A stretch of 64,000 nt of DNA, taken from sequence record PZ445489.1; one strand, written 5' to 3'. Shown here piece by piece: positions 4,594-46,021 of the stretch. The translations under genes and the position numbers were made by a program. The notes below the pieces were generated by a model, which ran no database searches, had not been told where the DNA came from, and was given only the letters and a program-made list of their open reading frames with translations. This DNA is from a phage. Numbering within the stretch: position 1 is the stretch's first letter; the number at the start of each line of letters is the position of its first letter.

Positions 4594-4621
4594 TCTCCTT
4601 TGCACGCTTTCGTGCCTTCTA

Positions 4622-4658
4622 AATGCAAAAAGGGGAAGGAGCATAGCCCCCTCCCCTT
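4622..4658 (-). terminator. hairpin + T-run (minus strand) downstream of 4676..5443 gene
   Basis: AAGGGGA/TCCCCTT stem with T-rich tail on minus strand. Confidence 0.4.
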
Positions 4659-4675
4659 AGGTTTAATTTACCAGA

Positions 4676-5443
4676 TTATTCAGCAGCCGCAGCTTTTGCA
4701 TCCAGTTTAGCACGCTTAGCGGCACCATCATAGTCCTTAGCAACCAGACCACGACGAGACAGCATAGATTTAACACCACGCTCAGACTTACCAGTTTTCT
4801 CAGCGATCTCAGCAACAGTCATGTTAACCAGATCCAGACCTTCTAGCAGATCTTCACGAGTTTTAGCACTTGAAGTTTCCTGTACCGGCATAGCAGCGAT
4901 ACGACCTTCACGAAGCAGGCTCAGAGCTTTACCACGGATCTGCTTGATATTACGACCGAAGTGAGCAGCGATAGCTTCAATAGTAGCACCAGCAACAACC
5001 TGATTAACAAAATCAGTTTCTTCATCCGGAGTGAAGGAACGAACAGCAGCAGCTTTTTCAGTTGGCTTAACAGAAGCGGTCATTTCTAGACTCAGGATCT
5101 TACCCTGTACCTGTTTAGCACCGAACTGACCACCAGCTACAGCAGCAGCGATTTCAGCATAGGTATACTGACCAGCATGAGCGTTCAGGAAATCAACCAG
5201 TTCAGCTTCCTGCTCAGGAGTCCACGGAGATTTCTGCACTTCGTTAGCTTTTTGTACTTCAAAACCTTCTTTACGCAGTTTAGAGCCAACAGAGCGAGCA
5301 GTAACATCTTTGCCAGTTTCAGCAGCCAGTTCAGCAGCGATAGCCGCTACTTGTTCTTGAGAGATTACAGCAACACCCAGAGCAGTGGCTTTTGCTTTCA
5401 GAGACTCGGTTACACCTTCTACGTTCCAGTTCAGTTTAGACAT
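4676..5443 (-). CDS. hypothetical Ala-rich protein with internal tandem repeat (possible DNA-binding protein)
   Basis: Two similar segments TPEQEAELVDFLNAHAG... and TPDEETDFVNQVVAGA...; position in replication module. Confidence 0.5.
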   Translation of the reverse strand: MSKLNWNVEGVTESLKAKATALGVAVISQEQVAAIAAELAAETGKDVTARSVGSKLRKEGFEVQKANEVQKSPWTPEQEAELVDFLNAHAGQYTYAEIAAAVAGGQFGAKQVQGKILSLEMTASVKPTEKAAAVRSFTPDEETDFVNQVVAGATIEAIAAHFGRNIKQIRGKALSLLREGRIAAMPVQETSSAKTREDLLEGLDLVNMTVAEIAEKTGKSERGVKSMLSRRGLVAKDYDGAAKRAKLDAKAAAAE

Positions 5444-6209
5444 TATTATTTTTCTCCAATAGTTCTTTAATCGACAGGATTTCTATCCCATTCGTTTCGG
5501 CTTTCTTATAAGATGAGGAAGAACGCTTCGATTCATCCTCACAGATTAGGTATTTGACGTCTTTGGTAACGGATTTCTTAACCGTATATCCTAGACCTTC
5601 TAAATAGTTTGTTGCATCCGTTCTATTTGCAAAATCTTGCAAAGATCCGGTAATACATACCGCGATTCCATTTGGCTGGGCAACTAATTCATCTGCAATG
5701 ACGGTTTTAGCTTTAGCACCAGTTGAGAATTTCCACGGTAGTTCGATAACATCCTTGCCTTGTGGGGAACTTAGCCAGGCTTTGTAGTTTTCTCCAGCCT
5801 TGCCGTCAGCCTTCACATCGTGGAAGCTAGTGCAATTTTGGGATAATTTCTTTGCTGCAACCTCTCCGATTAGGGGGATTCCTAAAGAACCGAGAACTGA
5901 ACCAAAGTCAATGTCTCCGCGAACTTTAGTGTTTAATTCGCTAATTAATTTAGCGGCAACCTTGCTACCCACTGCTCTAACCAAATCTTCTTCGGTTAGG
6001 TAAAATAGTTCTGAAATCTTCGTCAGCTCCAGCTTCTCAATAGTTTTTGGGCCAAAGCCCTTTAACTTCATTTTTGTACAAAAGTTCTCAATTAGCTTAC
6101 TTGATTGCGCTGGACAGTTGGACTTATTCCTACAGAATAATTGCCCGTTGACAAGATCTAGCTTAGAACCACAAGAGGGACATTGTGTTGGAATTTCGAT
6201 TTTCATCAA
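5436..6209 (-). CDS. ligB: NAD-dependent DNA ligase, C-terminal subunit (Zn finger, HhH, BRCT)
   Basis: CPSCGSKL...C..NKSNCP zinc ribbon, HhH-like GFGPKTIEKL, C-terminal BRCT-like segment GIAVCITGSL; separate ORF from the adenylation domain. Confidence 0.8.
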   Translation of the reverse strand: MMKIEIPTQCPSCGSKLDLVNGQLFCRNKSNCPAQSSKLIENFCTKMKLKGFGPKTIEKLELTKISELFYLTEEDLVRAVGSKVAAKLISELNTKVRGDIDFGSVLGSLGIPLIGEVAAKKLSQNCTSFHDVKADGKAGENYKAWLSSPQGKDVIELPWKFSTGAKAKTVIADELVAQPNGIAVCITGSLQDFANRTDATNYLEGLGYTVKKSVTKDVKYLICEDESKRSSSSYKKAETNGIEILSIKELLEKNNNV

Positions 6210-6236
6210 ATTTCTTCCTTATCAATTTATATAAAT

Positions 6237-6265
6237 ATTATAGCAAGTATTTAAGCATTTAGCAA
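6237..6265 (-). promoter_or_regulatory. early-type sigma70 promoter (minus strand) between ligase subunit genes
   Basis: minus strand TTGCTA-17 nt-TATAAT followed by conserved ATTTATATAAATTGAT leader. Confidence 0.6.
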
Positions 6266-6408
6266 CTACAATTTTAACTAACTTTGCTTACCCTCGCCAT
6301 AACTTTCTATCCCTCAACTGAATGATAATAGTATATACCTAAGCGGCGAAAATGTCAATAACCACTTTATAATTCCGATATGGTAGATGGGTAGCAAAGG
6401 GTTATGTA

Positions 6409-7383
6409 TTAATCGTATACTCGCTCTACTATGCACGGGATTACACCACCAGCACGAATTACTCGAATCTGGCAACCGATCTCTAGATCGAGAGAGTTAA
6501 TATAATCAACGTTATTAAGAGTCGCTTTAACAATTGTAGCGTCATCAATAATTACCGGTTCGAAATAACCAACAGGAGTTACTTTACCAGAAGCCCCTAC
6601 CTGCCATTCAACTTTAGTAAGAGTTGTAATCTCGCCTTCTTCATCCTCTTTAATAGCGAATGCCCCACGAGGGAATTTATTAGTCCAGCCTTCTCGGAAG
6701 AATTTGTTGTTGTCATTAATACGAACAACTTTACCGTCCGTCGGAATCCATTTAAAGAAGGAACGCACATTAACAACTGTTAAGAAATCTTCATTCTCTA
6801 GCCAGAGCATATCTTTTAAATATGCTTCTGTAATACCTACAGACTCAGCAGAACATTGGATACCATAAGCAACGAAGATTAAACCACCTTCCCCGATACG
6901 TTGTACGAAATCATCACTATCTTTGAGGTTAATAGCACCAGAGGCAAAGTTACGTTTATTTTCTACTTCTTTTGTAATTAGAACTTCACCAGTGATTTGA
7001 GTAGGTACTTTTTGGGAAATCTTTTTAGGGATGTTCAGCAATCTTACGTTGCTTGTGACATCATTCCCTAGAATACCATTACCACGAGTTAGTGCTTGAA
7101 CAAATTCTCCATTAATATATAACAGAGAAATTGCACAACCATCTAACTTATCAGTTTCTACTTGACCTAATGGGTTAAATGGGGGTTTATCTCCACGATT
7201 ATAATAAACTTTCTGTAAAGAATACATACGATACAGATGTGGAATATCACCCTTAGGCCCGATCTCTTCTTCTAGTGGGAAGCGTTTTACCAGGCAATCA
7301 TACTCCTCATCAGAGATTAAAGACATACCTTGATAATATGCTTCTTGACAGCGTTTAATAAATTCTTTTACATTATTCATCAT
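6409..7383 (-). CDS. ligA: NAD-dependent DNA ligase, N-terminal adenylation subunit
   Basis: KxDG adenylation motif (ETDKLDGCAIS), ligase-like downstream motifs. Confidence 0.8.
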   Translation of the reverse strand: MMNNVKEFIKRCQEAYYQGMSLISDEEYDCLVKRFPLEEEIGPKGDIPHLYRMYSLQKVYYNRGDKPPFNPLGQVETDKLDGCAISLLYINGEFVQALTRGNGILGNDVTSNVRLLNIPKKISQKVPTQITGEVLITKEVENKRNFASGAINLKDSDDFVQRIGEGGLIFVAYGIQCSAESVGITEAYLKDMLWLENEDFLTVVNVRSFFKWIPTDGKVVRINDNNKFFREGWTNKFPRGAFAIKEDEEGEITTLTKVEWQVGASGKVTPVGYFEPVIIDDATIVKATLNNVDYINSLDLEIGCQIRVIRAGGVIPCIVERVYD

Positions 7384-7582
7384 CGGCGATTTCCATCTTG
7401 AGTTCTTTATTATATTGTGTAACCATATCCATCAAATCAGCAGATTCTTTCAGAAACGCATCTTTGTACACCTTTTGATTTACTGTGCCTATGCTATCTT
7501 GATAATTAATGCGTGCTGTGGAAAGTAGATTAAGTTTTGCTTGAATCTTGGGAAGTGTTACTTTCATAATTGATCCTCTCAT
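7373..7582 (-). CDS. hypothetical protein (69 aa)
   Basis: ORF directly downstream of a conserved promoter (7597-7625, minus). Confidence 0.45.
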   Translation of the reverse strand: MRGSIMKVTLPKIQAKLNLLSTARINYQDSIGTVNQKVYKDAFLKESADLMDMVTQYNKELKMEIADDE

Positions 7583-7596
7583 TAATTTATATAAAT

Positions 7597-7625
7597 ATTA
7601 TATAACAAAACTGAGTTGAAAGCAA
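7597..7625 (-). promoter_or_regulatory. early-type sigma70 promoter (minus strand)
   Basis: minus strand TTGCTT-17-TATAAT. Confidence 0.55.
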
Positions 7626-7652
7626 ATACATTTATAAAGAAAAAGCCAAGAA

Positions 7653-7961
7653 CTAGGCATTCTTGGCTTTGAGTTCTTCAGCTCGTTTCTGTACTTCATG
7701 TAAAACCTCAGATTCGCTAAGAATCTGTGTAAACGCATAGAAAAGCTGTGATGTTGTTTCCAGGGTGTAAGGAAAAGAGAAGCCAGATTTCGTTGGAAAC
7801 CATTCATCATTAATATCAAGAAGCCAGTAACGAATACCCATGTATAGATTCCCACGAAATTCAGATACTGTTAATCTTACTTGTTCCCCCTCCTTCTCCC
7901 AAAGTATGATGGACTGGTCATCAACGTGTCCTTCATAGTTTTGATTTACCTGTTCGCTCAT
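7653..7961 (-). CDS. hypothetical protein (102 aa)
   Basis: ORF in minus-strand gene series. Confidence 0.5.
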   Translation of the reverse strand: MSEQVNQNYEGHVDDQSIILWEKEGEQVRLTVSEFRGNLYMGIRYWLLDINDEWFPTKSGFSFPYTLETTSQLFYAFTQILSESEVLHEVQKRAEELKAKNA

Positions 7962-8011
7962 TTACATATCCCAAATACACAAAAAGCCCCATATAGGGGC
8001 TAATTGGTTTC

Positions 8012-8308
8012 TTATCGGCCTACTGGAGAAGCACGATCTAACTCTGATTGGAGGCTAGTCACACGACGGACTTTCTCGACAGGAATAAAACGGAAACTAT
8101 CATTAGTACGAGAGAAGACAAGAATTTCATCATCTTTCGCTTTACGAATACGTTCACGTTTAATACGCTCAGCCAGATATTTATCTTGGGCTGGATCAAA
8201 TTCCATCGTACCCTGAAGGTACGTGGTTCCTTTCTGACGAAGTTTCTCGTAATGAAGATAAAACTCACCAAATTTTTCGCACTGTGCAATAATTTCAGCT
8301 TTAGTCAT
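8012..8308 (-). CDS. hypothetical protein (98 aa)
   Basis: ORF in minus-strand gene series. Confidence 0.5.
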   Translation of the reverse strand: MTKAEIIAQCEKFGEFYLHYEKLRQKGTTYLQGTMEFDPAQDKYLAERIKRERIRKAKDDEILVFSRTNDSFRFIPVEKVRRVTSLQSELDRASPVGR

Positions 8309-8345
8309 AGCTATAGTTCCTTTTGTTGGTGGATTTATCTAAAAA

Positions 8346-8756
8346 TTACTTAGTGATAGCTCGGATTGCTTCTGCCAGATGAGCGGCCGCTTTACCAGTC
8401 AGTTTGTCGATAATTGCATCATCCAGAAAATCTGGTGCTAAGCCAGCATCAGAGAATGCTGCGCGAAGGTCGGCATGGGCTTGAGCTTTGGAGGTACGAG
8501 AACCACCGGAAGCTTTTTCTCCAGTAGATGCGCTAGATTTAGAAGTAGAACCAGCAGCTTTCTTAATATACAAACCTGCTTTAGTCAGCTTCATACGAAA
8601 ACCGTTCGGAGTTACACCATTTTCCTGGGCAATTTCGCTAACAATTTCCATGCTAACACCCGGACGTTCATCCTCTGGGAATTGCTCCATACGAGCAACG
8701 TATTCGGAAGACATTTTTTCGAACAGTTCATCAGTCCACTGAGTTGGAGTAGTCAT
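8346..8756 (-). CDS. hypothetical protein (136 aa)
   Basis: ORF with conserved promoter upstream (minus strand, ~8790-8830). Confidence 0.55.
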   Translation of the reverse strand: MTTPTQWTDELFEKMSSEYVARMEQFPEDERPGVSMEIVSEIAQENGVTPNGFRMKLTKAGLYIKKAAGSTSKSSASTGEKASGGSRTSKAQAHADLRAAFSDAGLAPDFLDDAIIDKLTGKAAAHLAEAIRAITK

Positions 8757-8862
8757 ATTTTATATTTCCTTAATTAAGAATTAAACAGAATAGTTCTTTC
8801 AAACTATGAGAATATTATATCAAGAATTGTAGGATTAAGCAACTGAAATTTTTCGGTAATTG

Positions 8863-9132
8863 CTACACATCTAGCTCAACAATCTCCCAATCATCTGCTA
8901 GAATTTCTTCTAAAGTTAACTCTACATCTTGCTTATGTGATCGTTTAAAATTTTCAAAAATACCTGTGGGCAATGGTGCAAAACTTTTGATAGTATCATT
9001 GTCAACATTAAACTCAAAAAGAAGCATAAAGTTTTTATCGTTTTTCCAGCAATCTCGCTGAAGATATTTTATGTCTCCAGCTTTAAGCAAATCTGTTAGC
9101 TTACTCACGACGTTTTCCTTTTTCTTTATCAA
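8863..9132 (-). CDS. hypothetical protein (89 aa)
   Basis: ORF in minus-strand gene series. Confidence 0.5.
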   Translation of the reverse strand: MIKKKENVVSKLTDLLKAGDIKYLQRDCWKNDKNFMLLFEFNVDNDTIKSFAPLPTGIFENFKRSHKQDVELTLEEILADDWEIVELDV

Positions 9133-9805
9133 GTTTCAGGGCAGCCTTAACAGCCTCATTAATCAACGTAATAATTTCTTCACGAGTCCACTTATACCCT
9201 AGAGATTTTACGTCAACCCCTAACTTTTCCAGATGTTTAACAGAAGCCAGCTCGTAATTCATATAATGAACGTTCTGTTGTTTGCTTTCTGATAGAAGCC
9301 ATACACGGTAACAACCAACAGGATTATCCATTGCTTTTTTGATTTCACCAATACACTGGTATCCAGGAACCCAAACAAGTTCTCCAACCTCAAATTCTTC
9401 TGCCACAGCATCGTCAGGAATAATTGGAGGATTCAATGGATCTACAATATCGTTCAAACGAAGTAGAGCACCATATCGTTCCAGAACAGATTTAACCATT
9501 GCTACAGAGCGGTAATTACGATCGGCAATTTCTTCAAAAGAATCACCAGATAGGTACTGTTCAATAACGTTGGCCAACTCAATACCTTCAATGAGTGTAC
9601 CACGTTTCTTTTTCTTCATTTCGGCAACTTGAATCTGGCGGTCTTGCCACTCTTCAATCATCCTTTCCATAGTCGGATTGGAAGATACGCCGAGCATTTC
9701 ACAAGCTGCTTTCTTGGTACCACCGTTCTCCAGATGCTCTATAACCTTTTTAAAGACTTCATCAGGGATTTCATGGATATGTTTCTTTCTGCGAGAACCA
9801 GCCAT
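9101..9805 (-). CDS. helix-turn-helix DNA-binding protein
   Basis: N-terminal HTH-like GGTKKAACEMLGVS; conserved promoter upstream on minus strand (~9815-9860). Confidence 0.5.
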   Translation of the reverse strand: MAGSRRKKHIHEIPDEVFKKVIEHLENGGTKKAACEMLGVSSNPTMERMIEEWQDRQIQVAEMKKKKRGTLIEGIELANVIEQYLSGDSFEEIADRNYRSVAMVKSVLERYGALLRLNDIVDPLNPPIIPDDAVAEEFEVGELVWVPGYQCIGEIKKAMDNPVGCYRVWLLSESKQQNVHYMNYELASVKHLEKLGVDVKSLGYKWTREEIITLINEAVKAALKLDKEKGKRRE

Positions 9806-9874
9806 ATTTAAACTCCTCTCTCAAATTTATGAATCTATTATACAGAAAAATTTTCCTGAAAGCAAATAAAATTT

Positions 9875-10117
9875 TTACGATTCCTTGAGCAGAGAAGAAA
9901 GTTCAGCATATACTTTATCTAACTCAAACCCTATGCGAAGGGATACGTTAGTCCTCCGTTGTTTAAGTAACCATTCGGATATGTTAGGGATGCCAGCTAA
10001 TCTGTGTGGTACCACCCTACATAGCTTTTCCGAAGTATCATAAACAGGAACTTTACGTTCTTTTACTGGAAACTTCCTTGTTTCCCATTTTTTATTCTTC
10101 ACTGTCATTTCTAGCAC
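9875..10117 (-). CDS. hypothetical protein (80 aa)
   Basis: ORF overlapping end of upstream 955-aa gene. Confidence 0.4.
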   Translation of the reverse strand: MLEMTVKNKKWETRKFPVKERKVPVYDTSEKLCRVVPHRLAGIPNISEWLLKQRRTNVSLRIGFELDKVYAELSSLLKES

Positions 10118-14505: not shown

Positions 14506-15012
14506 TTACACCTTAAATTGTTGTAAGGATTTACACATTTCAAGATCTGGGCTAAATTCTAGCATATAGCTAACAGCTTTTAAATCTTGAAGATTTATTC
14601 CAGTTCTACCATTGACTATAACTGTTGGATACTGATACATCATAGCACCAGCGTCATCCAGTACACACCAATGTTTGAGCTTATGCTTTTCAACGAAGCG
14701 AAGAACAGAATTACCCCTAGATAGCCCACCACCAGTAAAATCCGTTGTACCAAGAAAACGATCGATAAGACCTAATCCGGTCATAATCTGAACGTTCTCC
14801 ATCTCATTCCTGACAGAGAACCATGAGGATACTCCAACAATCATTATCGGAGAAGGACGAATAAAGTCCTGAAAAGCCTTGAGAAGCGGTTTGAAAACCC
14901 AGTCACTTCCAAAGAAAATCTTTTCATCATCAGGTGCATGATGGTGGGAGATGCTCGAATTGAGCACCCCATCAATGTCTAGAAAAATAATTGGAGTATT
15001 ACTTATTTCCAT
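14506..15012 (-). CDS. HAD-superfamily phosphatase-like protein
   Basis: N-terminal FLDIDGVL (HAD motif I DxDG), C-terminal VLDDAG. Confidence 0.55.
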   Translation of the reverse strand: MEISNTPIIFLDIDGVLNSSISHHHAPDDEKIFFGSDWVFKPLLKAFQDFIRPSPIMIVGVSSWFSVRNEMENVQIMTGLGLIDRFLGTTDFTGGGLSRGNSVLRFVEKHKLKHWCVLDDAGAMMYQYPTVIVNGRTGINLQDLKAVSYMLEFSPDLEMCKSLQQFKV

Positions 15013-15181
15013 TTTTGTTCCTTTCTAAGAACGTATCATACTCAACCGTATTCACATATATAACACCATAGTCATCGGATTTATAGTCCATTTCCCACAA
15101 CTCACAGCGATAGTACCAACTACCGTCCGCCCATACAAATATATCATCAGGGTGTGTATACACAGATTTAATTATGGACAT
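14999..15181 (-). CDS. hypothetical protein (60 aa)
   Basis: ORF only. Confidence 0.4.
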   Translation of the reverse strand: MSIIKSVYTHPDDIFVWADGSWYYRCELWEMDYKSDDYGVIYVNTVEYDTFLERNKNGNK

Positions 15182-15996
15182 ATTTGTTTCCCTGGCATAT
15201 AAGGTCTACCCTCTAGATGAGCTTCTACACGAGCAATAAAATCAGGGTCACTAAAAGCATCTACCGCACCTTTACTCCAGTAAGGAATACCACGATCTTC
15301 CAACTGGTACATCTCACTACGAGTCATACCTTGATAGCCCGGTTCTGCCGCTAGGGCACTATCGTAGTAGTTAACTACCATTAATTTGGCAGCAGTCAAA
15401 TTAAGAACAGGAAATAATTCCCAGTAGAAGTTAATTACTTGGTTAGAACAACCAACCACAATGATCATATCTTGACTGGTAATATCATCAAAAACATTGT
15501 ACATTTCTGTATATGCTGGAGCATGCTCACCAAAGAAGATTACATTAGGTTTAACCCATTTATAATCATCTGGGTCAATAGAGCTATACCCAACATCAAT
15601 AATTCGTTTATTACTACTATTGTAGCTGTCAGCTACAACAACCTCTTTTAAATATCCGTGAATGTGCAGAATGTCACTATGTGGAACGCCAGCACGTTCA
15701 ATAAGGTCATCAACATTGGTAGTCAAGTTTACTACTTGACCTGGATATTGTTTATACCATTCACCAATACGCAAATGTGCAAGATTGGGTTCAACAGTTT
15801 TTAGCTCTTCACGACGCTTGTTGTAAAACATATGGGTTTTATGATAAAAATTACCACGAAAGGCATGAATATTACATACTTCTTCTAGATTATAATCATC
15901 CCACAATGCTTTACCACTAGCAGTATCAGTACGAAAAGCTCGTACACCACTTTCAACACTCAAACCCGCACCGCTAATAATAATTAATCTACGCAT
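15172..15996 (-). CDS. Sir2/CobB-family NAD-dependent deacylase-like protein
   Basis: ISGAGLSVESGVRAFR (GAGIS..SGIPxFR), NxAHxxI, NVDDLIERAG...HIHGYL (catalytic His), PNVIFFGE, IIVVGCS motifs line up with CobB as recalled. Confidence 0.7.
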   Translation of the reverse strand: MRRLIIISGAGLSVESGVRAFRTDTASGKALWDDYNLEEVCNIHAFRGNFYHKTHMFYNKRREELKTVEPNLAHLRIGEWYKQYPGQVVNLTTNVDDLIERAGVPHSDILHIHGYLKEVVVADSYNSSNKRIIDVGYSSIDPDDYKWVKPNVIFFGEHAPAYTEMYNVFDDITSQDMIIVVGCSNQVINFYWELFPVLNLTAAKLMVVNYYDSALAAEPGYQGMTRSEMYQLEDRGIPYWSKGAVDAFSDPDFIARVEAHLEGRPYMPGKQICP

Positions 15997-16391: not shown

Positions 16392-16673
16392 TTAGTTCTG
16401 TACTGTAAATTCATTCTTATCACAGTGAGCATAATAATACCCATACATACGATAAATTTTCACAGCCTTAGTAGACCCCTTCGATTCTTCATAATCAATC
16501 CAGAGCCACTTGTCTTTACCTACATAATGTACCCGAAACTTCTTAGCTTTCTTATCATTCCATGTTGCAACAACACGACGATAATCAAATCCGCCCAACC
16601 AATCTAGAGCCTTACGTTCTTCACTAGGCTCTCCAAGATGGGAGACATCTACTTTAGGAAGCAATTCGCTCAT
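16392..16673 (-). CDS. hypothetical protein (93 aa)
   Basis: ORF with conserved promoter upstream (minus, ~16690-16735). Confidence 0.5.
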   Translation of the reverse strand: MSELLPKVDVSHLGEPSEERKALDWLGGFDYRRVVATWNDKKAKKFRVHYVGKDKWLWIDYEESKGSTKAVKIYRMYGYYYAHCDKNEFTVQN

Positions 16674-16772: not shown

Positions 16773-18647
16773 TTACTTAGCTCGAATATCCTGATGCTTC
16801 ACTCTACCCATCACCTCGTGCTGTTTGCCAGGGTTAAATGGACGAGCACCCGGATTTCCAAGATACCCACAAACTCGACGAGTTACTTCAAGAGTTTCGG
16901 GGTCATGATTACCACAGATAGGACACTTAAACCCATCTTCGGATGCTATTGTTTCACCTAAGAATCCGCATTTACCGCAAGAATCCACTGGAGTATTAAT
17001 ACCGAAGTAATGAACTTTACTAGCAGCATAATTAATAACCCATTCCAGTGCATCTGGGAATCGTTTCATATCCGGTAGTTCTACATAGGAAATGCACCCA
17101 CCAGAAGCAATAGGCGTAAAGTTAGATTCATAATCAAATTTCACGTTAGGAGCAACTTTACGCTCTACATCAAGGTGGTGCGAGTTAGTGTAGTATCCTT
17201 TAGACAGAATATCTTCATGCTCTGGGAAATATTCACGGTCTAAACGGCAAAACCTATCACATAGGGACTCTGACGGTGTAGCATACAGGCTATAACCTAA
17301 CTTAGTCTCTTCCTTCTTCTGATCGACTCTATCTCGCATGTACTGCAATACACGCTGAACAAACTTGATGCAGGTCTCTGACATTGTGTCTACATCTTTG
17401 CCAAACATGAACTGTAGCATTTCATGGCAACCAATATACCCTAGAGATACAGAAGCACGGTTATAGAAATGATCGAATACATATTCATCAGGCTCCAAGC
17501 GTAACCCAAAGGCTCCTGACATATAGAGGATGGGTGCAGCTTTAGCTTGGATGTATTTTAAGCGATCAACTCTCCACTCCAATGCTTTTAACGCTGTATC
17601 CACACGTAGCTCAAGCAAATCAAAGAATAGATCAATATTTCCTTCAGCTTCGATAGCAATTCTAGGCAAGTTTACAGAAACAACACCTAAGTTATTACGG
17701 CCAGCAGTTTCACCATCTTCTGCAGCAGCTAGGAATGAACGGCAGCCCATAGAAACTTTATAGTCTCCAGTAACTTCTACAACCTTGTCATAGCTGATAT
17801 AATCTGGATACATACGTTCAGCAGTACATTTCATAGCTAACTTCTTGATGTCATAATTAACATCTCCTGGTTTCATATTTACGCCATCGCGAAGTACAAA
17901 TACCAGTTTCGGGAAGATAGCTGTACGTTTATTGATACCTAAACCATCCATGCGTACTTTCAGTATTGCTTTCTGTACTAGACGTGCTTCCCAGGAAGTT
18001 CCTAGACCAAAACCAAAGGTAATAAATGGACTCTGACCATTAGAGTTGAACATGGTATTGATTTCATATTCTAAACCCTGACAAGCGTCATAGACTTCTT
18101 TTTCAGTCATCTCCGTAGCCATTACTGATGCTTTGGCTTCATCCTTAGTCCAACGTTTTGCAAACGCATGATTTTTGTCATAGGATTTACGAACATAAGG
18201 GGCTAATACTTCATCAAGGCGATCTACAGAAGTACCACCGTACTGATGGGAGCTAACCTGAGTGATAATCTGAGCAGTAATAGCCGCCGCAGTAGTGATA
18301 GAGTTTGGAGTGCTAATTTCAGCATTACCAACCTTCATACCATTCTTCAACATATCTTCCAAAGCTACCAGACAACAGTTAGTCATGCCTAATGCAGCAT
18401 AATCAGCATCGTGGAAATGAATATCCCCAATCATATGAGCATTTCGAATCTGAATAGGCATTTCTTCTAGAATTAGATACTTACTCAATTCACCTGCAAG
18501 CATATCCCTTTGTGTAGGGAAACGTTCTGAGGGTTTATTGGCATTATTAAACAGCAGCTCTTCATCTGCTGACCCTTCGATAATCTCTTTGCAGTTTCTA
18601 ATTAACGCCTGCATTTCTTTATACTTTAGTTCTTCATTACGATTCAT
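16773..18647 (-). CDS. nrdD: anaerobic ribonucleoside-triphosphate reductase (class III RNR)
   Basis: C-terminal glycyl radical motif TRRVCGYLG and zinc ribbon CGKCGF...CPICG. Confidence 0.85.
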   Translation of the reverse strand: MNRNEELKYKEMQALIRNCKEIIEGSADEELLFNNANKPSERFPTQRDMLAGELSKYLILEEMPIQIRNAHMIGDIHFHDADYAALGMTNCCLVALEDMLKNGMKVGNAEISTPNSITTAAAITAQIITQVSSHQYGGTSVDRLDEVLAPYVRKSYDKNHAFAKRWTKDEAKASVMATEMTEKEVYDACQGLEYEINTMFNSNGQSPFITFGFGLGTSWEARLVQKAILKVRMDGLGINKRTAIFPKLVFVLRDGVNMKPGDVNYDIKKLAMKCTAERMYPDYISYDKVVEVTGDYKVSMGCRSFLAAAEDGETAGRNNLGVVSVNLPRIAIEAEGNIDLFFDLLELRVDTALKALEWRVDRLKYIQAKAAPILYMSGAFGLRLEPDEYVFDHFYNRASVSLGYIGCHEMLQFMFGKDVDTMSETCIKFVQRVLQYMRDRVDQKKEETKLGYSLYATPSESLCDRFCRLDREYFPEHEDILSKGYYTNSHHLDVERKVAPNVKFDYESNFTPIASGGCISYVELPDMKRFPDALEWVINYAASKVHYFGINTPVDSCGKCGFLGETIASEDGFKCPICGNHDPETLEVTRRVCGYLGNPGARPFNPGKQHEVMGRVKHQDIRAK

Positions 18648-18926: not shown

Positions 18927-18999
18927 ATATTTGTAAGTTGATAAACAAGATCTTTTTGTTGATCCTCTGTTAGCGAAGTACACTATAGGAGTGTTATTT

Positions 19000-19752
19000 A
19001 TGGGAAAAGCACGTCAAAAAAGAGAGAACCGCAATGGTTCAAGAAAGCGTGGCAACAAATATGAGAATAACGTAATTCAGGCTGATTTTTCTAATGATTA
19101 CGCTAACCCAGTTGCTAAATCCCTAGTAGGTAAAAACCGCGAGCAAAAATCATATATCAATATGATCAAGAACAACACAGTGACTGTGGGTATCGGTGAG
19201 CCAGGTACTGGTAAAACCTTTATTCCGTCCGTTCTTGCAGCTCAGGAACTAGTAGACATTCACTCAGATATTGAGCAAGTGATTCTCGTACGTCCTAATG
19301 AACCTCTAGGTAAGTCTCTTGGTATGCTTCCTGGTGATCTAGCGGAAAAGCTAGAGCCTTGGTTGGAGCCAATAGCTGATGGTATGAAATGGGCCATCGG
19401 CGATCATGCATATAAAGGATATGTCGAACGTCAGAAAATTAAATTTTTGGCTATCGAACATGCTCGTGGCAGAACTTTCAACAACTCCTATGTAATTGTC
19501 GACGAAGCTCAGAATATTTCCGTTGAGGCAATGATTTGTCTCCTAACTCGTGTAGGGCAAGACTGCCGTTTAATTATCTGCGGAGATATAGCTCAGAAAG
19601 ACATTAAAGGTGACTCAGGTCTAGCACTCCTTCTGGAAGTCTATGAGAAATATGAAAATGCCCCATTCTCAATGATCGAATTGATTGATAACGTTCGTTC
19701 TGTTGAGTCTAAAGCATTCTATGACATTTTTAAAGACATGGGGAAGGTGTAA
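19000..19752 (+). CDS. phoH: PhoH-like ATPase
   Basis: Walker A GIGEPGTGKTF, Walker B VIVDEAQN; ATG 19000 with AGGAG RBS (track start 18991 is GTG). Confidence 0.8.
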   Translation: MGKARQKRENRNGSRKRGNKYENNVIQADFSNDYANPVAKSLVGKNREQKSYINMIKNNTVTVGIGEPGTGKTFIPSVLAAQELVDIHSDIEQVILVRPNEPLGKSLGMLPGDLAEKLEPWLEPIADGMKWAIGDHAYKGYVERQKIKFLAIEHARGRTFNNSYVIVDEAQNISVEAMICLLTRVGQDCRLIICGDIAQKDIKGDSGLALLLEVYEKYENAPFSMIELIDNVRSVESKAFYDIFKDMGKV

Positions 19753-19975: not shown

Positions 19976-20116
19976 GCTAAAAAGCTAGACTGGTAATATA
20001 CAGGCCTGGGTATGAAAATACTCGGGCCTTTTCTATCAGAAAATTTTATTTGCCTAATGACCAATAATAATGTAGAATATTCCTTAAATCCTGATAACTA
20101 TAAAAAGGAAAGCCAA

Positions 20117-22447
20117 ATGAGCCATCGCATTGAAAAAGTAATTAAACGTGACGGTACTGTAGAAGACTTTGCTCCTGAAAAACTCAATGGTTGGGCAGAG
20201 TATGGTTGCAAAACAGTTGATGTAAGTTGGTCAGCCATTACTATGGCTGCTCAAAAAACTCTACCTAAAGGGGTTGTAGATTCCGACACTCTGATGGACG
20301 CATTAATTAAAGCTGCTGAAAGTCTTATCAAAGATAATCCAGCATACGATGTGCCAGCAAAGGAATTACGTCTTGCGCAAATGCGTAAACGCCTTTATGA
20401 TTCTTTCGAACCACCCTCTCTACGCTTCTTCCATGACCATATGGTTAGCGTAGGTGCATGGGAAGACATGAGTGCATGGATTACCGATGAGCAATTTGAA
20501 GCTCTGAATCAGGTTATAGACCACGATCGTGACCGTCTTTTTACTAGTGGTGGACTGAAGCAGTTCTTTGATAAGTATTCCCGTCGTAACATAGCCACTG
20601 GTGAAATTTACGAAACCCCGCAGTTTGCCTACATGGGTATGGCAATGGCGATGTTATCTCAACCTAACTGGACAATTCTAGATGCAATCGACCTCTACAA
20701 CGCAATGTCACTCCACAAAATCAACGTTCCTACGCCGCCACTGGTTGGTCTGCGCTCTAGTGACCGTGGATTTGCTAGTTGCTGCCTCGTGGATTCCACT
20801 GACACGTTGGATTCAATCGACACCGCCGAGCACATCGTCTTCAAAATGGTCGCAGCCAGAGCGGGAATCGGGTATCATCTTGAAAGCCGATCAATTGCTG
20901 ATCCGGTGCGAAATGGGGCATTCCCACATTCCGGAAAACTGCCATATTATCGACACATTGACCGCTCAGTAAAGGCCAATACTCAGCAAACTCGTGGTGG
21001 TTCTGCCACAGTGTCTTATCCATACTTCGACCCTGAAATCATTCAATTGATGCAGGTTAAGCAACAACGTGCTACAGATGAGAATAAAATCGATAAGATG
21101 GATTATTCTCTGAGCTTTAACAATCTTTTGTTAAAACGTTATCTTAAAAACGAGGATATTACGCTAATGTCATACTTCTATGCTCCAGAAGTTCATGAAG
21201 CGTTTTATAGTGATGACGAGGCTAAATTTGAAGAAATCTACGTGGCAGCGGAGAAACGTGTGGCATCTCTTACAAAGATCGACCACGAAGGAAAAACAGT
21301 TCCTGCAGCTCCTAAAGTCTCTGCAAAAGAAATCCTAGATACTTGGCTACGTATCCGAATGGAAACAGGACGTATGTATGCTCATCACATCGGGGAATCT
21401 AATCGTCACGGTAACTTCCTTGATCCAATCCGTATGACAAACCTTTGTGTTGAAATTACTCAGCCTACGCGCCCGTTCCATCATATCACAGAACTGTATA
21501 AGACAAAAGAGCAGCTTGATCAAATGAAGCCGGAGGATATTGGTGAAGTATCTCTGTGTAACTTAGGTGGTGTTGTACTGGGGCGCATGGAATCTCTGGC
21601 TGAGTGGGAAAAAACTTGCTACATCCTCCTGAAATTCGTTGATACAATTATTGAAATTCAGGATTATCCGTTCCCAACTATGGAATATACGGCTAAGAAA
21701 CGTCGTAATGTTGGTATTGGCCTAATGAACGCAGCAGGTGCAATGGCAGCAGAAGGTCTGGCTTATGAAGGTATTGAAGCCCGTAACTGGATTCACCGTG
21801 AGGCTGAAAAACTGTCCTACTTCCTGCATAAAGCCTCTGTACGCCTAGCTAAAGAACAGGGTGCATGTGAGTGGTTTGATCGTACTAAACCATCTAAAGG
21901 AATTCTGGTAATCGACACGTACAAGAAAACTGTTGATGAACTGGTATCCGTAGGTCTAGAAATGGATTGGGAGTCTCTGCGTGCAGATATTCTGAAATAC
22001 GGTATGCGTAACTCTGTTCTGACTGCTCAGATGCCAGGAGAAAGTTCTTCTGTTCTGTTAGGTGTTACTAATTCTATTGAACCGCCTCGTAAGATTGTAT
22101 CTATCAAGGGTAGTGCAGTGAATAAAGTAATTGCAATTGCTCCGGGTGCAACCGATTGGGAAACGTTAATGAGCTATAAACTGGCTTATGATGTAGATCG
22201 TATCGAGTGGATCAAATGGGTAGCAACTATGCAGAAATTCTTCAGTCAGTCTATCAGTACGAATATGTACTATGACTACACCAAGTTTGAGAATGAAATC
22301 ATTCCTGGTCCAGTAGTAGTTCGTGATTTCATGACTGCTGTTAAGTATGGGTGGAAGACTTTCTACTACGCAAACTTCAACACCGCTAATGGTGGTGGTG
22401 CAGGGGAAGAATCCGCAGGCTGCGCTTCTGGTGGTTGTACCATCTAA
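20117..22447 (+). CDS. nrdA: ribonucleotide reductase large subunit (class Ia)
   Basis: ATP-cone VIKRDGTVEDFAPEKL at N-terminus, active-site NLCVEI, C-terminal Cys pair; ATG 20117 with RBS AAAGGAAAG. Confidence 0.9.
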   Translation: MSHRIEKVIKRDGTVEDFAPEKLNGWAEYGCKTVDVSWSAITMAAQKTLPKGVVDSDTLMDALIKAAESLIKDNPAYDVPAKELRLAQMRKRLYDSFEPPSLRFFHDHMVSVGAWEDMSAWITDEQFEALNQVIDHDRDRLFTSGGLKQFFDKYSRRNIATGEIYETPQFAYMGMAMAMLSQPNWTILDAIDLYNAMSLHKINVPTPPLVGLRSSDRGFASCCLVDSTDTLDSIDTAEHIVFKMVAARAGIGYHLESRSIADPVRNGAFPHSGKLPYYRHIDRSVKANTQQTRGGSATVSYPYFDPEIIQLMQVKQQRATDENKIDKMDYSLSFNNLLLKRYLKNEDITLMSYFYAPEVHEAFYSDDEAKFEEIYVAAEKRVASLTKIDHEGKTVPAAPKVSAKEILDTWLRIRMETGRMYAHHIGESNRHGNFLDPIRMTNLCVEITQPTRPFHHITELYKTKEQLDQMKPEDIGEVSLCNLGGVVLGRMESLAEWEKTCYILLKFVDTIIEIQDYPFPTMEYTAKKRRNVGIGLMNAAGAMAAEGLAYEGIEARNWIHREAEKLSYFLHKASVRLAKEQGACEWFDRTKPSKGILVIDTYKKTVDELVSVGLEMDWESLRADILKYGMRNSVLTAQMPGESSSVLLGVTNSIEPPRKIVSIKGSAVNKVIAIAPGATDWETLMSYKLAYDVDRIEWIKWVATMQKFFSQSISTNMYYDYTKFENEIIPGPVVVRDFMTAVKYGWKTFYYANFNTANGGGAGEESAGCASGGCTI

Positions 22448-41093: not shown

Positions 41094-41432
41094 ATTTATA
41101 TAAATTGATGCGAAAATAGCTGCCTAGATACCAGGTGTATGACGTCTACACTAGCAGAGCTACCGAAAAAGAGATCCTCAGGATAAACGTCGTAGCAAAA
41201 TTAGTCTGGTATCCATCAATTTAGTTCACTAAGGTATTAGCTCGACCTAGGACTGGCTGCCAAAAAGCACGATCCCTACAATTCGGGAGAAGTTCTAGAT
41301 TAGTCCACTAGATTCAGCGGCAACTGAATAGTGTATCGGGTTTGCGAGATGACGCAGTTCCTTCCGCTCGAAGCGAAGGTGCTGTAGTTACGCCGAGCTA
41401 ATAGCCTTAGTAAACTTACAGGGGTTAACGCA

Positions 41433-41819
41433 GTGTGTACAAAAACATGTAGAGCCTGTGGGAATGAATATCCGTTAACAACCGAATATTTTTATTCGAA
41501 TGGATTTACTCCTAATGGCACAAAGAAGTGGAAGCCAACATGTAAAGCATGTGAAAAAGCTGAACGAGTAGCTGGACATGAAGAATTAATTAAAGAAGTA
41601 TTTCCTGTATTAGAATGTAGTATTTGTGGATATAATAGGTGTAAACAAGCCCTAGATTTCCACCGTACTAATCCAGAAGAAAAGGAATACTCCATTGCAA
41701 GGTTTAGAACTTCTCGTAGAAACAGAGAAGTAGTAATAGCAGAACTTAAAAAGTGCGTACTATTATGCTCTAACTGCCATAGAGAAGTACATGCTGGATT
41801 AATAAATTTGGGCGAATAG
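41433..41819 (+). CDS. HNH endonuclease
   Basis: C-terminal CVLLCSNCHREVHAG HNH motif plus CxxC pairs; GTG start per ORF track; 3' end overlaps tRNA-Ala. Confidence 0.65.
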   Translation: MCTKTCRACGNEYPLTTEYFYSNGFTPNGTKKWKPTCKACEKAERVAGHEELIKEVFPVLECSICGYNRCKQALDFHRTNPEEKEYSIARFRTSRRNREVVIAELKKCVLLCSNCHREVHAGLINLGE

Positions 41820-43838: not shown

Positions 43839-43863
43839 AATTTAAAAATTCATTTGCCTTCTC

Positions 43864-43892
43864 TCTTATTTCTTGTTATAATATCTATATAA
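43864..43892 (+). promoter_or_regulatory. early-type promoter
   Basis: TTGCCT-17-TATAAT. Confidence 0.55.
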
Positions 43893-43912: not shown

Positions 43913-44203
43913 ATGAAACGTTATCTTTCTGTAGTATTCCAAACTGGTGGTCAAAGATATACCTATGAATTTCCATCTTCTTGGAAAATCAAAGAAGGTG
44001 ATCAAGTAGTAGTGTTAACACCGCGTGAAGGATATAAAGTAGTAACGGTTAAACAAGTATTCCCAAAAGATCATGAACCAGCTAAAGGCATTCGCTATAA
44101 GATGATTCATGGTGTGGTTCGTCAAGTACCACGAACTGAGGTAGAAGTAGATAAGACTGGAGAAGCTAAATTCCATTATACTTCTTACTTAGACAGTGTA
44201 TGA
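43913..44203 (+). CDS. hypothetical protein (96 aa)
   Basis: ORF with GAGAGGGAAACC RBS. Confidence 0.5.
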   Translation: MKRYLSVVFQTGGQRYTYEFPSSWKIKEGDQVVVLTPREGYKVVTVKQVFPKDHEPAKGIRYKMIHGVVRQVPRTEVEVDKTGEAKFHYTSYLDSV

Positions 44204-44218
44204 TGTAAATATTCTAAT

Positions 44219-44295
44219 ACTTCGGTAGCTTAGCGATCTAAAGCACTCGGCTGATAACCGAGAGATCGGGGGTTTAAATCCCTCCCGGAGTACCA
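44219..44295 (+). tRNA. tRNA-Ile (GAU) with variant T loop TTTAAAT
   Basis: Acceptor ACTTCGG/CCGGAGT, anticodon stem CTCGG/CCGAG loop CTGATAA, T-arm GGGGG-TTTAAAT-CCCTC, CCA. Confidence 0.65.
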
Positions 44296-44391
44296 AATCT
44301 AGGAATTAAGACTATGCGTCCAGGAAAGTTTAAAAAAGCTAATTGGTCTAAAGAGTATAAAGAATACTTACTTAGTCTAGTAAAACATAAC

Positions 44392-44467
44392 AGTTAGTTG
44401 GCAGAGTGGTTATGCACCTCCTTCATACGGAGCGACTACAGTGGTTCAAATCCACTACTAACTACCA
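44392..44467 (+). tRNA. tRNA with anticodon CAU (Met/fMet/Ile2), third CAU species
   Basis: Acceptor AGTTAGT/ACTAACT, anticodon loop TTCATAC, T-arm AGTGG-TTCAAAT-CCACT, CCA. Confidence 0.65.
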
Positions 44468-44504
44468 TTAAAAGAGCTAGAGATAGCTAAATATAGGAGC
44501 AATT

Positions 44505-44699
44505 ATGTTAACAGTTAAAATAATGTCCACTGATGGTGGTGAGCAGATTCATGTTGGTAAAAGCGTAGGGTTTAATCCCAGAAATAAAAGCATAGCTATT
44601 TCTGGAATAGATCAAGCAATCTTCTTAAAAGAAGATGAAGTAGCATACGTTATGAACCAAACTGGTAAGACAGTTTCTGTATATCGTGGTAAACTATAG
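44505..44699 (+). CDS. hypothetical protein (64 aa)
   Basis: ORF with RBS AGGAG. Confidence 0.4.
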   Translation: MLTVKIMSTDGGEQIHVGKSVGFNPRNKSIAISGIDQAIFLKEDEVAYVMNQTGKTVSVYRGKL

Positions 44700-44741
44700 A
44701 CAATAAAGAGCTGAGCCAAATTCTAACATCAGGGAGATCTA

Positions 44742-45110
44742 ATGAAAGCATATCAAAATCTTAAGTCTGGCGTAATTAACCTTGTTCATGAAAATCAGAT
44801 TATTCAGCTATACTCCGACAATGGTGAACTTAAACAGAAAGTTCTAGTTGAAGATCTAGAAGGTATCACACCACAATTCGATCCCGAAGCCTTCCGTGAA
44901 GTTAAGGTGGAAGTCGCCCCTCAAATCGAAGGTGGTCAGCACCTAAATGTCAATGTGTTAAGCCGTGATCAGCTTTTGGATGCGCAGAAACATCCTGAAA
45001 AATATCCTCAGTTGACCATCCGTGTCTCTGGCTACGCTGTTCGATTTAATGCACTGACTCGTGAACAACAGAACGACGTTATTAGTCGTACATTTACTCA
45101 GGCGATGTAA
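44742..45110 (+). CDS. grcA: autonomous glycyl radical cofactor (GrcA/YfiD-like)
   Basis: C-terminal ...[45 protein letters not shown] matches the PFL/GrcA glycyl radical domain (RVSGY) as recalled. Confidence 0.75.
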
Positions 45111-45191
45111 TGGGGTTTGGATACGATTTCTCCCAGCTACGCAAGGTAGTCGAGCAAACTCCGTTTATCTCCCAAGTTTTAGGAGAAATGT

Positions 45192-45506
45192 GTGGATCGA
45201 GCATTAAGACGCCATCACCGGCAACGTGTGAAGAACAACCGCAAGAAGTATTGGACAGTCTTCCCACATGAAGAAAGCCCTAAGCGGTTAGGTATTATCA
45301 CTACTACTCCTTGCATCTGTTCTTGTTGGATGTGCGGGAACCCTCGCAAATATTATAAGAATAGTAAAGCAGGCATGAAAATTTCGGAGATTAGGAAAAT
45401 GGAAGCAATGATTATGGGCATCTCAAATGATGAATTTGATGGCTTTGTAGGATTCGGAGAAGGAATTAGCTCAGGCTGTTTCGAAGATGAACGCCCCGAT
45501 CTGTAA
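45192..45506 (+). CDS. hypothetical Cys-containing protein (104 aa)
   Basis: ORF. Confidence 0.4.
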   Translation: MDRALRRHHRQRVKNNRKKYWTVFPHEESPKRLGIITTTPCICSCWMCGNPRKYYKNSKAGMKISEIRKMEAMIMGISNDEFDGFVGFGEGISSGCFEDERPDL

Positions 45507-45515
45507 TTAATAACA

Positions 45516-45551
45516 AACCCCAGCTATTGAATAAGTAGTCTGGGGTTTTTC
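45516..45551 (+). terminator. rho-independent terminator
   Basis: AACCCCAG...CTGGGGTTTTT. Confidence 0.6.
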
Positions 45552-45627
45552 TGTATAAAGGTACATAATATATGTATAACAAAATTCATCCACATTAGGT
45601 TAATTTAAAAGACTTAATGGAGGTAAT

Positions 45628-45975
45628 ATGAGCCGTACTTATCGTAAACAATCTGGTGATCAGTGGTGGAAGTCTAAAGAACAATTCTCTCAAGAATATT
45701 CTTTCATCAAAGAAAATGGCTACTGGATTCGTGTTATTTATGCTAAATCCTGGGATGATGTAGAACAGGAAATGAAGGAAGCAACCATTCGTAATGAGAA
45801 AAAGGATGGTTATAACTGGAATTCTATTAGTAAGAATGTTAAGTGGCATTCTAATAAAATGGTTCGTCAAGGGAATCGTCAAGAACTCCACCGCGTGATG
45901 AAAGATCCAGAAAATTATGATTATAATCGCGATCATGACATGCGTAAGCGTGGATTATGGTGGTGCTATGACTAA
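45628..45975 (+). CDS. hypothetical protein (115 aa)
   Basis: ORF with GGAGGT RBS. Confidence 0.5.
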   Translation: MSRTYRKQSGDQWWKSKEQFSQEYSFIKENGYWIRVIYAKSWDDVEQEMKEATIRNEKKDGYNWNSISKNVKWHSNKMVRQGNRQELHRVMKDPENYDYNRDHDMRKRGLWWCYD

Positions 45976-45992
45976 ATTCTGAAATAATTCAT

Positions 45993-46021
45993 TTGCTAAA
46001 CCTCTCTTTTCTTGCTATAAT
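45993..46021 (+). promoter_or_regulatory. early-type promoter
   Basis: TTGCTA-17-TATAAT. Confidence 0.55.

What the first reader, a model, noticed from the sequence alone, without database searches (positions are those of the whole stretch)
44742..45110. Phage-encoded GrcA-like autonomous glycyl radical cofactor, with NrdD present but no recognisable NrdG
The 122-aa product carries the PFL-type glycyl radical domain ([14 protein letters not shown]) characteristic of the spare-part protein GrcA/YfiD, which rescues oxygen-damaged pyruvate formate-lyase. The phage also encodes the glycyl-radical enzyme NrdD (16773-18647), but no radical-SAM activase was recognised among the neighbouring ORFs. 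The phage may repair host PFL during infection, or this module may interact with NrdD.
Basis: partly seen in the sequence, partly recalled or inferred. Interest (0 to 1): 0.6.

Follow-up and report, generated by a model that had tools for sequence, protein, structure and literature searches.

The report
T5-like phage GrcA spare-part protein
This is a T5-like phage's copy of GrcA, a small "spare part" protein that restores oxygen-damaged host pyruvate formate-lyase; phage copies have been known since the T4 protein Y06I was characterised in 2001, so the finding is real but ordinary.

Summary
Window 44742..45110 (+) encodes a 122-aa protein whose last 62 residues are 79% identical to the C-terminus of E. 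coli PflB and 77% identical to E. coli GrcA, with RVSGY in place (Gly97). The whole protein is 52% identical to T4 vs.6/Y06I, the biochemically validated phage spare part. The gene is under strong purifying selection (dN/dS 0.03-0.18). tblastn finds homologues in 1586 phage records, and several T5-like records already annotate it as GrcA.

The window is a Tequintavirus (T5-like) genome. NrdD is present at 16773..18647, on the minus strand. No NrdG or PflA homologue exists in the window or in the remaining parts of the close relative FFH1 (best E 0.13-0.96; positive controls 1e-10 to 1e-115). NrdD without NrdG in T5-type phages is already published (Dwivedi 2013).

The idea that GrcA serves NrdD directly is not supported. 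The two glycyl-radical domains share no detectable similarity.

Most likely mechanism: host PflA activates the phage GrcA bound to oxygen-cleaved host PFL, and host NrdG activates phage NrdD. PFL-derived formate may feed the formate-type NrdD; that link is my inference. A CxxxCxxC-bearing ORF next to the gene is not an activase.

Novelty: already known. Interest: low.

The parts
44742..45110 (+). grcA-like gene: 122-aa autonomous glycyl radical cofactor, orthologue of T4 vs.6/Y06I
   Evidence: ORF and translation. Pfam Gly_radical 3.7e-18. TIGR04365 GrcA 3.5e-35. phrog_1209 matched full length, 8e-48. 52% identical to T4 vs.6 over the full length. dN/dS 0.03-0.18 among T5-like phages.
44922..45107 (+). 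PFL-type glycyl radical domain (residues 61-122)
   Evidence: 49/62 identical to E. coli PflB 698-759. 48/62 identical to E. coli GrcA and to T4 Y06I.
45021..45035 (+). RVSGY motif; Gly97 (45030-45032) is the predicted radical site, equivalent to PflB Gly734 (GrcA Gly102 by counting in the sequence)
   Evidence: Invariant columns in the alignment with PflB, GrcA and T4 Y06I. Sequence read.
44742..44921 (+). N-terminal half (residues 1-60), diverged from E. coli GrcA but shared with T4 Y06I (MKAYQ start)
   Evidence: BLASTP to T4 vs.6 spans residues 1-122. BLASTP to E. coli GrcA starts only at residue 51. This half has dN/dS 0.04-0.18. In E. coli YfiD, residues 1-60 matter for binding cleaved PFL (PMC8683613).
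44732..44736 (+). Shine-Dalgarno-like GGGAG, 5 nt upstream of the ATG
   Evidence: Sequence read directly.
43854..43882 (+). Nearest upstream sigma-70-like promoter match (TTGCCT-17-TATAAT with TG). It could drive ORF 43913, tRNA-Ile, tRNA-Met, ORF 44505 and grcA.
   Evidence: Consensus scan only, 10/12 matches. No terminator-like site on the + strand before grcA. tRNAs. Function not shown.
16773..18647 (-). Context: phage NrdD (class III ribonucleotide reductase, 624 aa, no ATP cone), 26 kb away on the opposite strand
   Evidence: Pfam NRDD 2.6e-172. 54% identical to E. coli NrdD and 49% to a T4-like NrdD. C91, M300, C302, N319 and G594 align with E. coli C175, M382, C384, N405 and G681.

Best explanation
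The gene encodes a phage GrcA (YfiD/Y06I-type spare-part protein).

Proposed mechanism:
1. Infection happens in a host growing fermentatively or microaerobically. Oxygen cleaves active host pyruvate formate-lyase at its radical glycine (Gly734).
2. The 122-aa phage protein binds the cleaved enzyme.
3. Host PFL-activating enzyme (PflA) converts its Gly97 into a glycyl radical.
4. Its C-terminal 62 residues replace the lost glycyl-radical loop, so PFL works again without resynthesis of the 85-kDa subunit.

T5-type phages are known to shut off host gene expression and degrade host DNA early in infection (my own knowledge, not tested here). They therefore cannot rely on new PflB synthesis, and a 14-kDa patch keeps acetyl-CoA/ATP and formate production running.

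The phage carries no activase. Both its glycyl-radical proteins, GrcA and NrdD, would depend on host enzymes already in the cell: PflA for GrcA and NrdG for NrdD.

Shown here: the sequence identity, the conservation and the absence of an activase. Inferred by homology to T4 Y06I and E. coli YfiD: activation by PflA and rescue of PFL.
For: - Domain identity: 79% to the PflB C-terminus, 77% to E. coli GrcA and T4 Y06I, with [10 protein letters not shown] invariant.
- Full-length homology to T4 vs.6 = Y06I: 52% identity, E 5e-39.
- Y06I and YfiD are activated by PFL-AE and restore oxygen-cleaved PFL (PMC8683613 citing Wagner 2001).
- Purifying selection on both halves, dN/dS 0.03-0.18 in 14 informative pairs.
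- RBS present.
- Conserved across T5-like phages: about 430 records at 90% or higher protein identity. Also present in T4-like phages; 1586 records in all.
- No NrdG or PflA homologue in the window or in the rest of FFH1. None is annotated in FFH1 or in eight other T5-like records.
- The E. coli host has pflA, pflB, nrdG and nrdD.
Against: - There is no experiment on the T5-type protein.
- Its N-terminal half, which in YfiD is needed for tight binding to cleaved PFL, has no significant BLAST similarity to E. coli GrcA.
- The protein scores 121 bits against NCBIfam TIGR04365, below the 170-bit cutoff. The validated T4 Y06I also falls below it at 151 bits.
- Free YfiD is a poor PflA substrate, so a non-repair role is not excluded.
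- The whole-genome activase check used FFH1 as a proxy. FFH1 is 100% identical to the window at 44000-46000. Over window 1-25000 the best-matching phage records are only about 96% identical, and FFH1 was not among the eight listed.
Confidence: 0.8

Rival explanations
1. Metabolic coupling to NrdD. The main benefit of phage GrcA is to keep host PFL making formate, the reductant of formate-type class III ribonucleotide reductases. That formate fuels the phage's own NrdD for dNTP synthesis in low oxygen. This refines the best explanation rather than excluding it.
For: - The window NrdD keeps the Cys/Met/Cys set of the formate-using E. coli and T4 enzymes (C91, M300, C302).
- Formate is the reductant of most studied class III RNRs and the product of PFL (PMC4390871).
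- GrcA homologues sit in T4-like and T5-like phages, both of which encode NrdD.
Against: - Co-occurrence of GrcA and NrdD across phages was not quantified, because the tools list at most 60 records.
- The two genes are 26 kb apart on opposite strands.
- E. coli has other formate sources such as TdcE (own knowledge).
- No experiment addresses this.
Confidence: 0.3
2. One reading: the GrcA-like protein acts on phage NrdD as a spare glycyl-radical part or radical donor, compensating for the missing NrdG.
For: Only circumstantial. Both are glycyl-radical proteins in a genome without an activase. PMC8683613 speculates that some GrcA-like proteins might repair other glycyl radical enzymes.
Against: - No similarity between the GrcA-like protein and the NrdD glycyl-radical domain (E 5.9, not aligned at the Gly).
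- The NrdD radical loop (RRVCGYLG) sits next to a C-terminal four-Cys cluster (CxxC...CxxC) that GrcA lacks. In NrdD structures this region is a Zn ribbon (own knowledge).
- The domain is 79% identical to PflB's.
- A spare part cannot replace an activase.
- T4 has the same GrcA together with its own NrdG.
Confidence: 0.03
3. Decoy or regulator. The phage protein titrates host PflA, or binds intact or cleaved PFL, to redirect host fermentation rather than repair it.
For: The N-terminal half differs from the host GrcA and is phage-specific, shared between the T4 and T5 families. That could change partner binding.
Against: The T4 homologue restores PFL activity in vitro. The catalytic-loop residues are invariant and under the strongest constraint (C-terminal dN/dS 0-0.13). 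That is expected for a working radical site, not for a mere binder.
Confidence: 0.07
4. Non-functional remnant of a captured pflB 3' end.
For: Several GenBank records call it 'pyruvate formate-lyase' or 'formate acetyltransferase'.
Against: - Intact ORF with an RBS.
- dN/dS 0.03-0.18 at dS up to 0.76.
- The N-terminal extension is conserved between phage families.
- Present in about 430 T5-like records.
Confidence: 0.01

Closest known systems
Bacteriophage T4 vs.6 / Y06I (autonomous glycyl radical cofactor; Wagner et al. 2001)
   Same: Phage-encoded protein of about 120 aa with the same MKAYQ start. 52% identical over the full length and 77% in the glycyl-radical domain. RVSGY invariant. Same PHROG family by full-length match.
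   Different: T4's C-terminal domain is nearly host-identical, 59/62 to E. coli GrcA. The T5-type domain is roughly equidistant from PflB (49/62) and GrcA (48/62), and it ends TFTQAM like PflB rather than TFTESL. T4 also encodes its own NrdG; the T5-type phage does not.
E. coli GrcA/YfiD (PDB 6owr; TIGR04365)
   Same: Standalone small protein with a PFL-type glycyl-radical domain. 74% identity over residues 51-122. E 1.4e-30 to 6owr.
   Different: The N-terminal 50 residues show no significant similarity. The score is below the NCBIfam equivalog cutoff (121 vs 170 bits). The gene is phage-borne and sits in a tRNA-rich region that corresponds to the T5 early region (placement from my own knowledge).
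E. coli PflB (pyruvate formate-lyase) C-terminus, residues 698-759
   Same: 79% identical, including the Gly734 loop.
   Different: This is only the last 62 residues of a 760-aa enzyme. There is no catalytic barrel and no Cys418/Cys419. TIGR01255 scores 86 bits against a cutoff of 994. It is not a formate acetyltransferase, whatever several GenBank labels say.

Membership tests
GrcA/YfiD/Y06I autonomous glycyl radical cofactors | Small standalone protein (about 120-130 aa) rather than the C-terminus of a large enzyme | tested here: met
   122-aa ORF bounded by stops, with its own RBS.
GrcA/YfiD/Y06I autonomous glycyl radical cofactors | C-terminal PFL-type glycyl radical domain with RVSGY and high identity to the PflB C-terminus | tested here: met
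   Pfam PF01228 at 66 bits, cutoff 22. 49/62 identical to PflB 698-759. [10 protein letters not shown] invariant.
GrcA/YfiD/Y06I autonomous glycyl radical cofactors | Reaches the curated NCBIfam TIGR04365 equivalog cutoff (170 bits) | tested here: not met
   121 bits. The experimentally validated T4 Y06I also fails at 151 bits, while E. coli GrcA scores 234. The cutoff is tuned to bacterial GrcA and does not separate phage members.
GrcA/YfiD/Y06I autonomous glycyl radical cofactors | N-terminal half homologous to that of characterised members (needed for binding cleaved PFL) | tested here: inconclusive
   Homologous to the T4 Y06I N-terminus (BLASTP spans 1-122). No significant match to the E. 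coli GrcA N-terminus. T4 Y06I bridges the two: it aligns to TIGR04365 from model position 25.
GrcA/YfiD/Y06I autonomous glycyl radical cofactors | Glycyl radical installed by PFL-activating enzyme; restores activity to oxygen-cleaved PFL | not testable with these tools
   Known for YfiD and Y06I only (PMC8683613).
Pyruvate formate-lyase / formate C-acetyltransferase (the label in several GenBank records) | About 760-aa ten-stranded barrel with catalytic Cys418/Cys419; TIGR01255 cutoff 994 bits | tested here: not met
   Only model positions 683-744 are matched, at 86 bits. The protein is 122 aa.
NrdG / PflA radical-SAM glycyl-radical activases (presence in this phage) | Detectable homology to NrdG or PflA anywhere in six-frame translations | tested here: not met
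   Best E 0.13 with phmmer, 0.74 with the NrdG profile and 0.96 with PflA. Controls scored 1e-45 to 1e-115 with the NrdG queries and 2.4e-10 with PflA.
NrdG / PflA radical-SAM glycyl-radical activases (presence in this phage) | Conserved CxxxCxxC cluster motif in a protein long enough for the radical-SAM core (150 aa or more) | tested here: not met
   Strict motifs occur only in stop-to-stop segments 41388-41816 and 45183-45503, and neither has a Pfam hit. The ORF in 45183-45503 belongs to a 75-104 aa family whose invariant Cys are CxCxxC; the first Cys of the CxxxCxxC is Thr in one homologue.
Class III ribonucleotide reductase NrdD (context gene) | NRDD domain, radical Gly in RRVCGY, thiyl Cys and a C-terminal four-Cys cluster | tested here: met
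   PF13597 at 2.6e-172. G594, C302, C91 and M300 aligned. CxxC...CxxC present before the Gly loop.

The most novel reading that the evidence does not exclude
T5-type phages carry two glycyl-radical proteins (GrcA and a formate-type NrdD) and no activase. They may therefore run an anaerobic dNTP supply line that depends on host NrdG and PflA made before infection. GrcA would be kept specifically to sustain PFL-derived formate as the reductant for phage NrdD after host gene expression is shut off. One observation fits adaptation to the host activase. The NrdD glycine loop is 71% identical to E. coli's over 35 residues, against 53% over the whole protein. The NrdG-carrying T4-like NrdD is only 51% identical to E. 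coli in that loop.
Probability: 0.3. Interest if true: 0.4.

Novelty: already known. Interest (0 to 1): 0.15.

Why it matters
It matters little as a discovery. Phage GrcA is a textbook auxiliary gene from T4, and the T5-type copy is already in hundreds of GenBank records, some correctly named.

Two modest points of value remain:
- Annotation clean-up. The gene is variously labelled acetyltransferase-like, pyruvate formate-lyase, 2-ketobutyrate formate-lyase or even ribonucleotide reductase subunit, and should be GrcA.
- A testable physiological idea. T5-type phages, which infect gut enterobacteria at low oxygen, rely on host activases for both their glycyl-radical proteins and may link PFL repair to formate supply for NrdD.

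Tried and rejected
A regex over all six-frame segments of 50 aa or more found strict CxxxCxxC in only two segments.
- **The hit next to grcA (ORF 45192..45506).** It gave a noise-level phmmer alignment to T4-like NrdG that happened to be in register at the Cys motif (E 0.75 for the sequence, 0.88 for the aligned domain). I rejected it as an activase for these reasons:
  - no Pfam hit;
  - it belongs to an 88-aa PHROG of unknown function;
  - it drops out of the 4-sequence NrdG profile search;
  - homologues are 75-97 aa, and the first Cys is not conserved.
- **The 93-aa ORF just downstream of NrdD (16392..16673).** Best NrdG hit was E 0.13 over 25 residues with no Cys motif. Rejected.
- **NCBIfam cutoff failure.** I considered it as evidence against membership and dropped it after T4 Y06I also failed the cutoff.
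- **Literature.** Searches for papers on the T5 GrcA, or on T5-like phages combined with nrdG, found nothing specific.
- **Not used.** The large protein database searches and structure prediction: 77-79% domain identity to solved structures made them unnecessary.
- **Technical.** Only some fetched loci appeared in the scripting sandbox, so FFH1 regions were re-fetched one at a time.

Full report
**What the window is.** Window 44000-46000 is 100% identical to Escherichia phages vB_EcoS_FFH_1 and SP15 and 95-98% identical to many other T5-like phages; 446 records match. These belong to Demerecviridae, Markadamsvirinae, Tequintavirus. Window 1-25000 matches T5-like replication and nucleotide-metabolism modules at about 96% identity. 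The finding therefore sits in a T5-type genome, in a tRNA-rich region. tRNA-Gln x2, Thr, Ile and Met lie just upstream.

**Checking the observation.** 44742..45110 (+) is an intact 122-aa ORF. GGGAG lies 5 nt upstream of the ATG. The quoted motif [14 protein letters not shown] is at residues 90-103, and the radical glycine is Gly97.
- Pfam Gly_radical matches residues 62-103 at E 3.7e-18.
- The best NCBIfam model is GrcA, TIGR04365, at E 3.5e-35.
- Against solved structures the top hits are E. coli GrcA (6owr, E 1.4e-30) and PflB (E 5e-27), aligned to the very C-terminus.
- Over the last 62 residues it is 49/62 identical to PflB 698-759, and 48/62 to both E. coli GrcA and T4 Y06I.

One omission in the finding: NrdD at 16773..18647 lies on the minus strand, 26 kb away.

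**Is it a working gene?** I aligned the gene from six T5-like phages of the genera Tequintavirus and Epseptimavirus. Nei-Gojobori dN/dS is 0.03-0.18 over the whole gene, with dS up to 0.76. The ratio is low in both the N-terminal half (0.04-0.18) and the C-terminal domain (0-0.13). tblastn finds a homologue in 1586 phage records. About 430 of these are at 90% or higher identity, the T5-like set. Roughly 1000 are at about 52% identity over the full length and are T4-like phages of Escherichia, Klebsiella, Shigella and others. The gene is conserved and constrained, not a pflB remnant.

[quoted passage not shown] The window protein aligns with it over its entire length: 52% identity, E 5e-39, with the same MKAYQ start. 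T4 vs.6 is Y06I. With E. coli YfiD it is one of only two spare-part proteins validated biochemically. Both receive a glycyl radical from PFL-activating enzyme and restore activity to oxygen-cleaved PFL (PMC8683613 summarising Wagner et al. 2001).

Later work on YfiD adds detail:
- it binds cleaved PFL with a KD of 14 uM;
- it is activated efficiently only when bound to cleaved PFL;
- it needs its N-terminal 60 residues for tight binding.

The window protein's N-terminal half resembles T4's but not E. coli's. It falls below the 170-bit equivalog cutoff of TIGR04365 at 121 bits. So does the validated T4 protein at 151 bits, while E. coli GrcA scores 234. The cutoff failure is therefore uninformative. 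It is not a formate acetyltransferase: only the last 62 model positions of TIGR01255 are matched.

**The missing activase.** I searched every six-frame segment of 25-30 aa or more in the window. I also searched FFH1 record coordinates 1-10000 and 60000-108483, the parts the window does not cover. The queries were E. coli NrdG, E. coli PflA, a T4-like NrdG, and a profile built from four NrdGs (E. coli, T4-like, Aeromonas phage, Felix O1-like). The best hits were E 0.13, 0.74 and 0.96. The T4-like control locus scored 1e-45 to 1e-115 with the NrdG queries, and 2.4e-10 with PflA. No NrdG is annotated in FFH1 or in eight other T5-like records annotated by different pipelines. NrdG is nevertheless common in phages, with 2282 records. 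Dwivedi et al. [quoted passage not shown] That is the arrangement seen here: PhoH-like ORF at 18991-19752 and NrdA at 20012-22447.

It gives a tempting hit. ORF 45192..45506, directly downstream of grcA, contains CICSCWMC, and phmmer aligned it in register with the T4-like NrdG cluster motif at a noise-level E of 0.88 for that aligned domain. It is not an activase:
- it has no Pfam hit;
- it belongs to an 88-aa PHROG of unknown function;
- it disappears from the NrdG profile search;
- homologues in Erwinia, Rhizobium and Enterobacter phages are 75-97 aa, with invariant CxCxxC followed by GNPRK, and the first Cys of the CxxxCxxC is Thr in one of them.

**Does GrcA act on NrdD?** No support. BLASTP between the GrcA-like protein and either the phage or the E. 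coli NrdD gives only noise (E 5.9 and 8.6), not aligned at the glycine. The NrdD loop is RRVCGYLG, preceded by a four-Cys cluster. T4 carries the same GrcA alongside its own NrdG, so GrcA is not a substitute for NrdG.

**How it most likely works.** Host PflA activates phage GrcA bound to oxygen-cleaved host PFL, which restores acetyl-CoA and formate production. Host NrdG activates the phage NrdD. Two observations fit the second step:
- The phage NrdD is 54% identical to E. coli NrdD overall.
- Its 35-residue glycine loop is 71% identical to E. coli's. The NrdG-carrying T4-like enzyme is only 51% identical to E. coli in that loop.

A further link is possible. The phage NrdD keeps the Cys/Met/Cys set of the formate-using E. 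coli and T4 enzymes, and formate, the product of PFL, is the reductant of most studied class III RNRs (PMC4390871). PFL repair could therefore feed phage dNTP synthesis. This is my inference and is untested.

**Verdict.** The feature is already known as a kind and in this lineage; it is named GrcA in T5_ev219 and VAH1. Interest is low.

Noticed in passing
window 45192-45506 (+): 104-aa basic, Cys-rich ORF directly downstream of grcA, carrying CICSCWMC. It belongs to a small phage family (phrog_4499, 75-104 aa) with invariant H, CxCxxC and a mostly conserved GNPRK motif. Members occur in T5-like, Erwinia jumbo, Rhizobium and Enterobacter phages. Function unknown; probably a metal-binding knuckle. 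It is not a radical-SAM enzyme.
   Followed up: yes
window 16773-18647 (-): The phage NrdD lacks the N-terminal ATP cone: its alignment to E. coli NrdD starts at E. coli residue 113. Its glycine-loop region is more similar to E. coli NrdD (71%) than the protein is overall (53%). The T4-like NrdD shows the opposite pattern (51% in the loop, 59% overall). This fits reliance on host NrdG.
   Followed up: partly
window 44742-45110 and homologues in GenBank: Annotation of this gene in T5-like records is inconsistent. Labels include 'putative acetyltransferase-like protein', 'pyruvate formate-lyase', '2-ketobutyrate formate-lyase', 'formate acetyltransferase', 'ribonucleotide reductase subunit', 'hypothetical protein' and 'GrcA'.
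   Followed up: yes
window 16392-16673 (-): 93-aa ORF immediately downstream of NrdD, where nrdG sits in T4-like phages. It is a conserved T5-like protein of unknown function (phrog_7953) with a single Cys and no similarity to NrdG beyond noise (E 0.13).
   Followed up: partly
window 15172-15996 (-) and 14506-15012 (-): ORFs downstream of NrdD on the minus strand. The corresponding FFH1 ORFs (ORF103 and ORF105, same lengths, matched by position) are annotated as Sir2-like NAD-dependent deacetylases. Not examined further.
   Followed up: no
L009 (Aeromonas phage PhAER-4) 1908-4474: An unannotated 698-aa NrdD ORF with an ATP cone and an RRVSGY radical motif lies directly upstream of, and overlaps, the annotated nrdG. 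The record's annotation misses the large subunit.
   Followed up: no
L019 (Providencia phage PSTCR5, Priunavirus) 2668-3189: A more distant Demerecviridae member annotates a longer 173-aa 'pyruvate formate-lyase'. Only its C-terminal 62 residues match the window protein (74% identity), which suggests a different N-terminal extension on the same glycyl-radical module.
   Followed up: no
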